Shown here: piece after piece, positions 54,001 to 57,000 of the stretch
Numbering within the stretch: position 1 is the stretch's first letter
How the letters are laid out: each line of letters opens with the position of its first letter
Assembly: GCA_037379345.1 (NCBI GenBank)
Contig: CM074515.1
Span: forward strand, 8,060,001 to 8,124,000
Length of the DNA stretch: 64,000 bases
Direction: 5' to 3'
Source: Perna viridis
Lineage: Eukaryota
Made by a program: the position numbers

Positions 54001-57000
54001 AAATCCCTACCCAGTACAAAATGATCAATTATGAATCATTCACACATTTTTATGCCTTTATCAAGTATATCAACTGTATAGGAACCATCAATGGGAAATC
54101 AAACCATTTTTACATGTTTTAAGTTAGCTTTAGAACCATACCTAGCAGCTCCTCTCAGTAGATCCCTGTCATGTTTACCACAGATCCACCATGACGGAAG
54201 ATCATATGATGTTTGACACAACTTGATTCTCTCATCTAATTTGGGATGTGCTAAAGTCTCCGTACGTATCTTATTGAGGAGATCAATCCTGGCAAGAGAT
54301 CGACTAGCTCTTTCTTCTGTGATAGGTTCCACATATATATTGTTAGGAGGTAGGGCTATTAAGAAAAGGAAGAAAGTATGTGCACATAAATTAAAATCAA
54401 CTTAATCCTGAATTTTTTTAAAATATTTTCTTGCATACTTAAAATGTCCAATTATAAAACAAATAAGCATATTTTATGAAGTGGTTCTTACAATAAATGA
54501 AGTGATACTATAACAGCTACTGTTTTTAACAGGCAATAATAGTTACTTTGAGGTAACAACATGTTCTATATTTATCTCATTCTACATATATTGTACTTCA
54601 GTTATATTGGTTCAAGTGCCATCATAGCTAACATTTACGAAATTCATAATAATGCACATCAGGTATTCTTCTATAGAATAGTTTTTGTTTGATCACTTAC
54701 CATCATCATCATTTTTAAACTTTTTACAGACTCTCATACACATATGGTAGAAAGCTTGAAAATATTCTGTCAAGGTATCATCATGTTTCTTCTCGAGTCT
54801 TGCTAATGACCTGAATCTATCCCACTTGTACCTTCCTGTAAACAGGTCAAACTCTACACCAAATGTTGATATGATTCTGTAGAAATCAGATTCTTCTCTC
54901 CTTGTCCAATGGCTGAAAATACAACAATTATTTGATATATAGCTTTTTATTAGTTAATACAAAGATGTCTATTGTGTAATTCATTTTCCATTTCTAATTT
55001 CATTGGTGAACATAAATTATCTTCCTCTTTTTAGTACTTCTCTCACAATTATAAAGTCATTCAAAAGCACTAAAAATCAAGATCTTATCAAGAAAAGAAG
55101 ACTCTAATGATCCACAATATGACAATGAGCTTCTTCCATAAGGTGTCTAGGGAAGACCAGATCAAAACATGCAAGCTAAATATACAACTTCAGCCATTAA
55201 ATTAAAAGTATTTGATCACAATACATTTAGATATACATAAACAGCATGCAAAATTGAAAGTACAAATAGGACCATATCTTGATTCTAAGTGTTCTGTCAG
55301 AAATACTGCGAAATCACTAAACTCATAAGACTTTCCAACCAGCACACCTGGTAATAGGAGGTCTTCAGTATTAGCATGGCAATTCATCATGAACACTCGA
55401 GGTTGATAAGAAAAATTTCAGACTAACTCTATAGAATGTAGTTGGCAATAAATATTTTGTATTCATTTTTCAACCCAAAAATTCCACAAATGAAACCATA
55501 GACATTAATAACAAAAGTTGGATAAAACAAAAGATTGGATGCCAAGCACTTGTAGCAAATGGATAGACTGTCATAAGTTTGAAGAATAAAGCATGTTCAA
55601 AAATTTAAACCCATCACAACATATACAGATATTATTGACAATATTGGAATTAGCATTATAAAAAAATATACAGCCATCAGAATAAATGTAAAGCCACACA
55701 CCGTAAACTGAAAAGAAAATGAATGTTACGATTCATGCATATTCTGATATCATACCTTTCCCATAATCCGAAAAAACTGTCAAATAAATAGGAAAATATT
55801 ACTTGCAATGACTGAAAGTTTTTTTTTCCGGTAAGTTTAACGTTTGTTTTGTATGATATTGTAAAATGAAGATTCAAGTGCCAAACCATATAACTGATTT
55901 ACAGGGATGGTTTTATGAGGTCATCAAACAAAGCGGAAATTGGTAAAATTGGAAATAAAAAAACAGTAAAAAAAGGAATCCAGATTTCAATTAGCGGAAT
56001 TCCCCTAAAAAGTGGAAAAATATCAACTCTAGATTTACAAAACATACAAAACTACTTTAATCAGTATGGTAATTTGCACCCTTGAAAAAAATTGTTTAAA
56101 ATTTCAGGTGTATGTTGGTATCTAACAAATGATGACAAACAGTAAGGAAAATTGTGAAATTTAACAAATATGCTTAGATCTTGAAAAATACCAGACCAAA
56201 TATGACACCATTTCATGTATTTCAAGGAGAACAGCTGCTAAACCTTGAATTTGGAAAAGTTAAACAAAGATATGACCTTCATTTCATGATCAGAAACCTA
56301 ATAATACTGAAGGTCAAACTGTTCCCTGAAGCCAATTTACTAAGTACCGATAACCCAACCCTACAAAATCATCATACCCTGTTTAATAAGTAGTATGAAT
56401 GAACTACAAAGGCAGGGAAAAGACAAGAAATGTAAAATATACCTCTGTTGATACTGAATTTTTTCATCTTCTTTGTATCTATTCATCATGTCATACCTTT
56501 CTCTTCTCTCCATTCTCTGTAAACCATACAGTATCAATATAGCCGCACAATAACAATAACAAACATATGGAAAATTATCAACTGTTAATAAACTCAATTA
56601 TGTTAGTTTACATATGTAAATACACAAATCATTTAGGTTTGGATTTAGAAATATAGTTGGTGGAGTTCAATTCTGAAACCATTCTATTTTCAAGAGCTTA
56701 GCAGTGTGCACTTCTGTAAAACAAGCACTACTTTATTTCGGATGCACAGACATATGACATATGTATGGACTGATATATGTATGAACATACCCTAGCTCTC
56801 TGAGCATCCTTTAACATTTGTCGTTTATGATTCCGTTGAAAGCTAGTGATGATTCTCCTTATACGTGTATTTAGATCTGACATGGATGGCCAGGGTAGTT
56901 TTTCCTCATCATCACATTCCATAGCAGATGGTGTGGAAAGGTCTTTGGCAGCATTACTGTTCTCCTGACTAGAGAGAACGGATGTACAGGTATCCTCATC

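What the first reader, a model, noticed from the sequence alone, without database searches (positions are those of the whole stretch)
55288..55397. U6-A53 guide snoRNA (SNORD8/9) in a CHD7/8-family intron: apparently ancient host-gene linkage
Seen: textbook C, D' and D boxes, a 7-bp terminal stem and an 11-nt U6 complement; the +5 rule points to the A in AUUAGC (A53). From recall: human SNORD8 and SNORD9 lie in CHD8 introns, and Drosophila kismet hosts a U6-guide snoRNA. If so, the host-snoRNA pairing dates from the bilaterian ancestor. It also shows this gene is a real snoRNA host, which supports the array interpretation.
Basis: partly seen in the sequence, partly recalled or inferred. Interest (0 to 1): 0.65.

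Follow-up and report, generated by a model that had tools for sequence, protein, structure and literature searches.

The report
U6 methylation guide snoRNA in mussel
An intron of a mussel chromatin-remodeller gene of the CHD6-9/kismet type holds a well-formed box C/D small nucleolar RNA whose guide is identical to the one that directs methylation of a catalytic-core nucleotide of spliceosomal U6 RNA in vertebrates, where the same kind of RNA sits in the related gene CHD8, so this pairing of RNA and host gene may be very old.

Summary
On the minus strand at 55397..55288 lies a 110-nt box C/D snoRNA. It has a C box, an 11-nt antisense element one base before a D' box, a D box and a 7-bp terminal stem, plus one G.U pair. 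C box, guide and D' together are identical to the consensus of Rfam RF00377 (snoU6-53, the SNORD8/9 family). They occurred in 0 of 100 shuffles. The Rfam score, 29.3 bits, is below the gathering score of 36, so the case rests on anatomy and not on the score.

The RNA lies in sense orientation in a 1530-nt GT..AG intron of a CHD6-9/kismet-type gene that has HTH_CHD6-9 and two BRK domains. A neighbouring gene identifies the window as Mytilus, a protostome. Human SNORD8 and SNORD9 (U6 A53) are tabulated with host gene CHD8.

The ancient-linkage idea is therefore plausible, with two gaps. The claim about fly kismet could not be verified. Whether the introns are orthologous could not be tested.

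I class it as a new, unannotated member of a known kind. Interest is moderate. The same gene also carries an upstream array of further C/D-like elements.

The parts
55288..55397 (-). Box C/D snoRNA, 110 nt. Predicted guide for 2'-O-methylation of the A of the U6 AGC triad (human A53).
   Evidence: Direct reading. RF00377 snoU6-53 at 29.3 bits over model 1-110. Own C/D scan.
55391..55397 (-). 5' half of the terminal stem (7 bp, plus G.U at 55398/55287).
55384..55390 (-). C box (fits RUGAUGA).
55370..55380 (-). 11-nt antisense element. Base 55373 is the fifth upstream of D' and pairs with the target A.
   Evidence: Unique in the window. Identical to the RF00377 consensus.
55365..55368 (-). D' box CUGA.
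55338..55352 (-). Internal hairpin (5-bp stem) between D' and the C' region.
   Evidence: Present in both MFE and centroid folds.
55297..55300 (-). D box CUGA.
55288..55294 (-). 3' half of the terminal stem.
54913..56442 (-). Host intron: 1530 nt, GT..AG, phase 2. The snoRNA lies 1045 nt from the 5' splice site and 375 nt from the 3' splice site.
   Evidence: Splice sites read. Frame continuity and homology to P0003. Distances.
56443..56516 (-). Upstream 74-nt coding exon of the CHD6-9-type gene.
   Evidence: Reading. The reading frame joins the next exon and gives a junction that resembles P0003.
54701..54912 (-). Downstream exon encoding the HTH_CHD6-9 tri-helical domain.
   Evidence: PF23078, E = 1.9e-34. 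tblastn.
43502..45499 (-). Exons encoding the two BRK domains of the same gene (45499-45365; 43986-43891 with 43600-43502).
   Evidence: PF07533: E = 3.3e-17, 7.4e-5 (22.8 bits, just under the cut-off of 23) and 2.4e-10.

Best explanation
This is an intron-encoded box C/D snoRNA of a Mytilus mussel. It is the functional counterpart, and probably a diverged homologue, of vertebrate mgU6-53 (SNORD8/SNORD9).

Inferred mechanism:
1. The RNA is transcribed as part of the pre-mRNA of the CHD6-9/kismet-type gene.
2. The C and D boxes, held together by the 7-8-bp terminal stem, form the kink-turn that recruits the core proteins Snu13, Nop56, Nop58 and fibrillarin.
3. After splicing and debranching, exonucleases trim the intron back to the protected particle.
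4. The 11-nt element before D' pairs with the U6 snRNA stretch that contains the AGC triad.
5. Fibrillarin methylates the 2'-OH of the nucleotide paired to the fifth guide base upstream of D'. That nucleotide is the A of AGC, A53 in human numbering.

Shown here: the boxes, stem, guide, spacing, strand, intron position and host-gene family.
Inferred: expression, processing, the protein partners and the methylation itself.

Secondary claim, about 0.55: the snoRNA and a CHD6-9-type host gene were already linked in the protostome-deuterostome ancestor, and vertebrates kept the RNA in the CHD8 paralogue.
For: - Anatomy read directly. The unbroken string ATGATGAATTGCCATGCTAATACTGA (55390-55365, minus strand) holds the C box, guide and D'.
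- That composite matched in 0 of 100 shuffles even with 3 mismatches allowed.
- Best Rfam family at this place: RF00377 snoU6-53, 29.3 bits, E = 4.4e-4 in 1.1 kb and 0.026 in the whole window. The full model 1-110 aligns to 107 nt, and C box, guide and D' are identical to the consensus. The identity includes two U's 5' of the guide that U6 pairing does not require. The internal spacer is of similar length, 70 nt against 73.
- The terminal stem is present in both MFE and centroid folds.
- Sense orientation in a GT..AG intron of a gene with HTH_CHD6-9 (E = 1.9e-34) and two BRK domains.
- All 8 of 8 C/D-like candidates in the window lie on this gene's strand, against 0.78 expected per random window. 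Four are conserved paralogues. The gene therefore acts as a snoRNA host.
- Literature: human U6 Am53 is assigned to SNORD8/9 (mgU6-53), with host CHD8. The AGC triad is essential for catalysis.
- The window is Mytilus: an RBL1 exon is 99% identical to M. galloprovincialis.
Against: - The Rfam score is below the curated threshold, 29.3 against 36. The gathering scan returned 0 of 4227 families.
- In the whole-window scan, four other sub-threshold hits had comparable E-values of 0.02-0.05: two plant miRNA families, fungal U3 and mir-124. The mir-124 hit, when inspected, does not match the mature miRNA region. An E-value of this size alone therefore proves little.
- The C' box is degenerate, and the D-linked antisense region has no assigned target.
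- Folding energy is not better than shuffles.
- The RNA lies 375 nt from the 3' splice site. The mammalian optimum is about 70-80 nt (recalled from Hirose and Steitz 2001, seen only as a reference entry).
- No expression data, no Mytilus U6 sequence and no second mollusc were available.
- For the linkage claim, only two lineages are documented and the intron position was not compared. Hoeppner and Poole 2012 (abstract and section 8) conclude that intronic snoRNA locations drift over long times.
Confidence: 0.8

Rival explanations
1. It is a genuine U6-A53 guide, but its position in a CHD6-9 gene arose independently of the vertebrate SNORD8/9-CHD8 arrangement. The cause would be snoRNA mobility into a long, broadly expressed, intron-rich gene that in mussels already hosts other snoRNAs. 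The resemblance to RF00377 would then reflect the shared target and not common descent.
For: - Hoeppner and Poole 2012 found no deep positional conservation of intronic snoRNAs and argue for ongoing mobility.
- Outside the boxes and guide nothing aligns with the family model: the 70-nt middle is treated as unaligned.
- The score is below the gathering score.
- The gene holds at least five more C/D-like elements that match no vertebrate CHD8 snoRNA, so it may be a general landing site.
Against: - Landing by chance in the same gene subfamily out of thousands of possible hosts is improbable.
- The following are all shared with the vertebrate consensus: the same use of D' and not D, the same one-base spacers on both sides of the guide, two identical non-pairing bases 5' of the guide, and the same unusual overall length (107 against 110).
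Confidence: 0.3
2. The guide serves 18S rRNA instead of, or as well as, U6. This would resemble the fungal and plant snR53/snoR53Y family and Neurospora CD11, whose D' guide shares the same 10-nt core and is assigned to both an 18S site and a U6 site.
For: - There is a weak second Rfam match at the same place: RF01279 snoR53Y, 17.6 bits, E = 4. Its consensus carries the same 10-nt core before D'.
- The table for N. crassa CD11 lists 18S-Am793 (13 bp) and U6-Am47 (11 bp) for one D' element (PMC2780460, passages).
Against: - The snoR53Y score is far below its gathering score of 43, and its E-value is 4.
- The eleventh base of the window's guide, and the bases flanking it, follow the U6-53 consensus and not the snoR53Y consensus.
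- Whether Mytilus 18S rRNA has the matching site could not be checked. There is no rRNA in the window, and no eukaryote genome collection was available.
Confidence: 0.12
3. It is a dead copy or a chance look-alike that makes no stable RNA.
For: - There are no expression data.
- The Rfam score is below threshold.
- Folding energy is unremarkable.
- The C' box is degenerate.
- The RNA is far from the 3' splice site.
Against: - The composite motif matched in 0 of 100 shuffles.
- C, D' and D boxes are all intact, and the stem is a perfect 7 bp.
- It is in sense orientation in an intron.
- Reading the flanks shows no A-rich tail and no flanking duplication.
- The element itself is a single copy in the window. 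One stretch of the same intron, upstream of the snoRNA at 55901-56025, does recur at 63682-63821.
Confidence: 0.05

Closest known systems
Vertebrate mgU6-53 / SNORD8 and mgU6-53B / SNORD9 (Rfam RF00377 snoU6-53/MBII-28), the guides for U6 Am53, in introns of CHD8
   Same: - Box C/D class, with the guide placed before D'.
- C box, guide and D' are identical to the family consensus.
- Similar total length (107 against 110) and a long unconserved middle.
- Intronic, in a gene of the same CHD6-9 subfamily.
   Different: - The score is below the family's gathering score, 29.3 against 36.
- The terminal stem sequence and the whole middle differ.
- The host is the single invertebrate-type CHD6-9 gene, not CHD8 itself.
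- Only one copy was seen in the 64 kb, where humans have two.
- It lies 375 nt from the 3' splice site.
- The organism is a bivalve mollusc.
snR53 / snoR53Y (RF01279) and Neurospora crassa CD11
   Same: - Box C/D class, with a D'-linked guide that shares the same 10-nt core.
- CD11 is assigned a U6 site as well as an 18S site.
   Different: - The Rfam match is only 17.6 bits against a gathering score of 43.
- Those RNAs are primarily 18S guides of about 76-80 nt.
- The window's guide extends in the U6-specific direction.
Other U6 2'-O-methylation guides (SNORD7/mgU6-47, SNORD67, SNORD94, SNORD10)
   Same: Box C/D RNAs that modify U6 through fibrillarin (tables seen).
   Different: They have different target nucleotides, guides and host genes. 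None gave a match at this place.
snoRNAs annotated in Drosophila kismet introns
   Same: If the recollection is right, they are C/D snoRNAs in the fly orthologue of this host gene.
   Different: Their target is unknown to me. Searches returned 0 papers. Searches listed papers, of which I opened one and found nothing relevant. The primary Drosophila paper was not held.

Membership tests
Box C/D snoRNA (class) | C box RUGAUGA near the 5' end and D box CUGA near the 3' end, brought together by a short terminal stem. | tested here: met
   C box 55390-55384, D box 55300-55297, and a 7-bp stem plus one G.U pair.
Box C/D snoRNA (class) | An internal D' (and C') box, with an antisense element of 10 nt or more ending one base before D' or D. 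| tested here: met
   D' at 55368-55365, with the 11-nt element ending one base before it. The C' box is only degenerate.
Box C/D snoRNA (class) | A stable RNA bound by fibrillarin, Nop56, Nop58 and Snu13. | not testable with these tools
   No expression or binding data are available.
snoU6-53 / SNORD8-9 (RF00377) | A guide complementary to the U6 AGC-triad region that places A53 opposite the fifth base upstream of D'. | tested here: met
   Guide and spacing are identical to the family consensus. The +5 position was read. The A53 assignment of the family comes from the literature. The U6 gene of Mytilus itself was not seen.
snoU6-53 / SNORD8-9 (RF00377) | Reaches Rfam's curated gathering score (36 bits). 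This is an operational cut-off, tuned on the seed sequences. | tested here: not met
   29.3 bits, with 0 matches in the gathering scan. I therefore claim that it works like mgU6-53 and is a probable diverged homologue. I do not claim that it is an Rfam-certified member.
snoU6-53 / SNORD8-9 (RF00377) | Located in an intron of CHD8 or its orthologue, in sense orientation. | tested here: inconclusive
   It is in a sense-strand intron of a CHD6-9-subfamily gene. Orthology of the intron with the human SNORD8/9 introns was not compared.
snoU6-53 / SNORD8-9 (RF00377) | U6 is 2'-O-methylated at this A in the organism. | not testable with these tools
   Needs RiboMeth-seq or primer extension on Mytilus U6.
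snR53 / snoR53Y (RF01279) | Reaches the gathering score (43 bits), and an 18S rRNA target site is present. | tested here: not met
   17.6 bits, E = 4. The 18S site in Mytilus could not be examined.
CHD6-9 / kismet subfamily (host gene) | An HTH_CHD6-9 tri-helical domain followed by two C-terminal BRK domains. | tested here: met
   PF23078, E = 1.9e-34. PF07533 in exons at 45.4 kb and at 43.9/43.5 kb.
CHD6-9 / kismet subfamily (host gene) | N-terminal double chromodomain and SNF2 helicase core. | not testable with these tools
   These parts lie upstream of the window. The best named relative (Helobdella, P0004) carries them.

The most novel reading that the evidence does not exclude
The U6-53 guide snoRNA and a CHD6-9-type chromatin-remodeller gene have travelled together since before protostomes and deuterostomes split, more than 550 million years ago. 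They may even have stayed near the same exon, the one that encodes the HTH_CHD6-9 domain. That would make this one of the few snoRNA-host pairs outside translation-related genes to resist the otherwise general drift of intronic snoRNAs. It would also hint that making the guide for the spliceosome's catalytic AGC triad is tied to transcription of this remodeller. In mussels the same gene has in addition become a multi-snoRNA host, with an array of lineage-specific C/D RNAs in one long intron.
Probability: 0.45. Interest if true: 0.6.

Novelty: new member of a known kind. Interest (0 to 1): 0.4.

Why it matters
Rfam-threshold annotation misses this RNA, so it adds a U6-Am53 guide to a mollusc. 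Homology-based surveys recover few snoRNA families in protostomes: one survey counted only 11 families as unambiguous for the bilaterian ancestor (PMC5006418, section 18).

If the host-gene pairing proves ancestral, it is a counter-example to the 'constrained drift' view of intronic snoRNA location (PMC3511168). It would also give a concrete locus at which to ask why a guide for the catalytic core of U6 should stay inside a chromatin-remodeller gene. Human CHD8 is a well-known neurodevelopmental disease gene (my recollection), so its passenger snoRNAs are of some practical interest.

If the pairing is not ancestral, this is simply one more ordinary intronic snoRNA.

Tried and rejected
- **Rfam gathering scan of the whole window:** 0 matches.
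- **Other sub-threshold Rfam hits** with similar E-values (MIR859, MIR2600, mir-124, Fungi_U3). The mir-124 hit was inspected and does not match the mature miRNA region, so I rejected it as a generic hairpin. The others were not inspected.
- **Extended external stem in the flanks:** a 170-nt fold gave z = +0.58, and the MFE did not even keep the terminal stem. No support.
- **Second copy (SNORD9-like) in the window:** none with up to 1 mismatch in the guide.
- **Repeat or transposon origin:** the snoRNA is unique in the window. Only an unrelated 125-140-nt stretch of the same intron recurs at 63682-63821.
- **Literature on fly kismet snoRNAs.**
  - Searches returned 0 papers.
  - One search listed 8 papers and one search listed 15 of 199. 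No title or abstract start concerned a kismet snoRNA.
  - I opened only PMC3884663, where the 'kis' hits shown were the author name Kiss.
  - 'MeU6' gave only unrelated matches.
- **Papers not held:** Huang et al. 2005, Ganot et al. 1999 and Kehr et al. 2014.
- **Searches for a protostome U6-53 snoRNA or for CHD-host conservation** (and passages) found nothing. They cover only CC-licensed PMC papers and bioRxiv. Supplementary tables were closed, for example those of PMC3511168 and PMC6984369, which may list host genes.
- **Not done:**
All protein searches were exon by exon.
  - No comparison with human sequence or human gene structure was made.
  - No eukaryote genome collection was available, so conservation in other molluscs, the Mytilus U6 and 18S sequences, and the D-linked antisense element's target stayed unchecked.
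Full report
**What is there**

Read on the minus strand, 55397..55288 has the full layout of a box C/D snoRNA:
- a 7-nt 5' stem half (55397-55391);
- immediately after it, a C box that fits RUGAUGA (55390-55384);
- three bases, then an 11-nt antisense element (55380-55370);
- one base, then a D' box CUGA (55368-55365);
- a middle of about 64 nt that contains a 5-bp hairpin (55352-55338);
- a D box CUGA (55300-55297);
- two bases, then the 3' stem half (55294-55288).

The stem has 7 Watson-Crick pairs, and a G.U pair at 55398/55287 can extend it. The stem appears in the MFE and centroid folds of the 110-mer. 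The fifth base upstream of D' is 55373. Its partner in the target, which is the reverse complement of the guide, is the A of an AGC trinucleotide. A convincing C' box is missing; two degenerate candidates lie at 55327-55321 and 55317-55311.

**Is it more than chance?**

Single features are not.
- The 11-mer with up to one mismatch is matched by 46 of 100 shuffles.
- In my own scan, a C box, a D box 50-160 nt away and a stem of at least 7 bp turned up in 14 of 100 random windows.
- The folding energy is ordinary: z = -1.37 for the RNA and +0.58 with flanks.

The conjunction is. The 26-position composite of C box, guide and D' (ATGATGAATTGCCATGCTAATACTGA, 55390-55365) matched once, with no mismatch. 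It matched in 0 of 100 shuffles even with three mismatches allowed.

**Family**

- The Rfam gathering scan of the window found nothing: 0 of 4227 families.
- With E-value thresholds, the best match at this place is RF00377, snoU6-53/MBII-28. It scores 29.3 bits against a gathering score of 36, with E = 4.4e-4 in a 1.1-kb search and 0.026 in the whole window.
- The alignment covers the full model (1-110 against 107 nt), pairs the terminal stem, and is identical to the consensus from the C box through D'.
- The identity includes two U's 5' of the guide.
- The middle (70 nt against 73) is unaligned.
- A caution applies. Four other hits had similar E-values and are implausible for this organism. 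The one I inspected, mir-124, does not match the mature miRNA region. The score is therefore corroboration only, and the identification rests on anatomy.
- A weak second match at the same place, RF01279 snoR53Y (17.6 bits, E = 4), shows that the 10-nt core of the guide is shared with a plant and fungal 18S guide family. Neurospora CD11 is tabulated with both an 18S and a U6 site for one D' element (PMC2780460, passages). A dual 18S target in Mytilus could not be tested.

**What the family does**

- Human U6 carries Am53. The guide is mgU6-53, that is SNORD8 and SNORD9, and the enzyme is fibrillarin (PMC5855946, passages; PMC7960923, passages).
- The AGC triad is essential for catalysis. It pairs in U4/U6 stem I, in U2/U6 helix I and in the catalytic triplex (PMC5855946, passages).
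- That A53 is the A of that triad is my own count from memory of human U6.

**Host gene and organism**

All protein searches were made exon by exon.

- The open frame at 54693-54953, which holds the exon 54912-54701, encodes HTH_CHD6-9 (PF23078, E = 1.9e-34).
- Exons at 45499-45365 and at 43986-43891 with 43600-43502 encode two BRK domains.
- tblastn with Helobdella, lamprey and bird CHD6-9 proteins, and with three unnamed transcript-derived fragments, lays out minus-strand exons from 59870 to 41889.
- The snoRNA's intron runs from the GT at 56442 to the AG at 54913. It is 1530 nt long and in phase 2. The flanking frames join to give a junction that resembles the relative P0003.
- The snoRNA is 1045 nt from the 5' splice site and 375 nt from the 3' splice site. 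That is further than the mammalian optimum, which I recall and did not see in any call.
- Downstream on the same strand lies an RBL1-type gene, with DUF3452 exons. One exon is 99% identical to Mytilus galloprovincialis RBL1 and 98% identical to M. edulis.
- The window is therefore from a Mytilus mussel, a protostome, and is not human. No human contig was handled, and nothing was compared with human sequence.

**The linkage claim**

- Human SNORD8 and SNORD9 are tabulated with host gene CHD8 (PMC6023535, table passage).
- Invertebrates generally have one CHD6-9 gene that is co-orthologous to the four vertebrate paralogues. This is established knowledge and was not tested here.
- A U6-53-type snoRNA inside that gene in a mollusc is what common descent predicts. 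Chance predicts it only weakly.
- Shared details also favour homology over convergence: use of D', the spacers, the non-pairing flanking bases and the overall length.
- Three things are missing:
  - Whether the introns are orthologous was not tested.
  - No third lineage is documented.
  - The fly leg of the argument could not be verified. Searches returned no papers, searches listed none on the subject, the one paper opened had nothing relevant, and the primary papers were not held.
- Hoeppner and Poole 2012 (abstract and section 8) argue that intronic positions drift. That raises both the prior for independent capture and the interest of the pairing if it is ancestral.
- I put ancestral linkage at about 0.5.

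**The gene as a snoRNA host**

- My C/D scan found 8 candidates with stems of at least 5 bp. All 8 are on the minus strand, against 0.78 (sd 0.93) expected per random window.
- Five lie upstream in what appears to be one long intron, with no exon found between 59870 and 64000.
- Four of them are paralogues (63904-63830, 62307-62237, 62107-62041, 61001-60937). Their C box, first antisense region, C' box and D box are invariant, while the region before D varies.
- Their Rfam matches are weak and inconsistent: SNORD27, SNORD73 and snoZ17 at 25-30 bits. They remain unassigned.

**Novelty and verdict**

- No paper found in ten searches describes a protostome U6-53 snoRNA or conservation of a CHD6-9 host.
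- I class this as a new, unannotated member of a known kind, and ordinary in mechanism.
- The interest lies in the possibly ancient host association, which the data make plausible but do not establish.

Noticed in passing
window 63904-63830, 62307-62237, 62107-62041, 61001-60937 (minus strand): Four paralogous box C/D-like elements of about 65-75 nt lie in what looks like one long intron of the same CHD6-9 gene. Their C box, a 17-nt first antisense region, the C' box and the D box are invariant among the copies, while the stretch before D varies. Terminal stems are 5-9 bp. Rfam matches are only weak and inconsistent (SNORD27, SNORD73 and snoZ17, 25-30 bits). The target is unknown.
   Followed up: partly
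window 60107-60042 (minus strand): A fifth, unrelated C/D-like candidate with a 5-bp stem lies in the same upstream intron, about 170 nt before the exon at 59870. It has no Rfam match.
   Followed up: no
window 22190-22363, 22637-22855, possibly 35196-35411 (minus strand): An RBL1 (p107)-type retinoblastoma-family gene lies directly downstream of the CHD6-9 gene on the same strand. It has DUF3452 exons, one of them 99% identical to Mytilus galloprovincialis RBL1. From memory, vertebrate CHD9 lies beside RBL2, and CHD6 lies on the same chromosome arm as RBL1. This may therefore be old microsynteny. Not tested.
   Followed up: partly
window 22950-23024 (plus strand): A hairpin matches Rfam mir-124 below threshold (28.8 bits against 49). 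The alignment does not reproduce the mature miRNA region, so it is probably not mir-124.
   Followed up: yes
window 44087-44203 (both strands): A near-palindromic hairpin sits in the intron between the BRK exons. It matches plant miRNA families MIR859 and MIR2600 on both strands, far below threshold. It is probably an inverted-repeat element.
   Followed up: no
window 55901-56025 and 63682-63821: A stretch of about 125-140 nt in the snoRNA's intron recurs at 72% identity, in the same orientation, just downstream of the first array copy. It is probably a dispersed repeat.
   Followed up: no
window 31695-32021 (minus) and 38259-38525 (plus); 36638-38255 (plus): Two open frames share a similar peptide motif, and a run of open frames of 70-157 aa lies between the two genes. 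None has a Pfam match. They are probably decayed mobile elements.
   Followed up: no
window 43706-43612 (minus strand): A weak C/D-like candidate with a 5-bp stem ends 12 nt before the exon at 43600 and contains a branch-point-like motif. It is more likely ordinary intron 3' sequence than a snoRNA.
   Followed up: no
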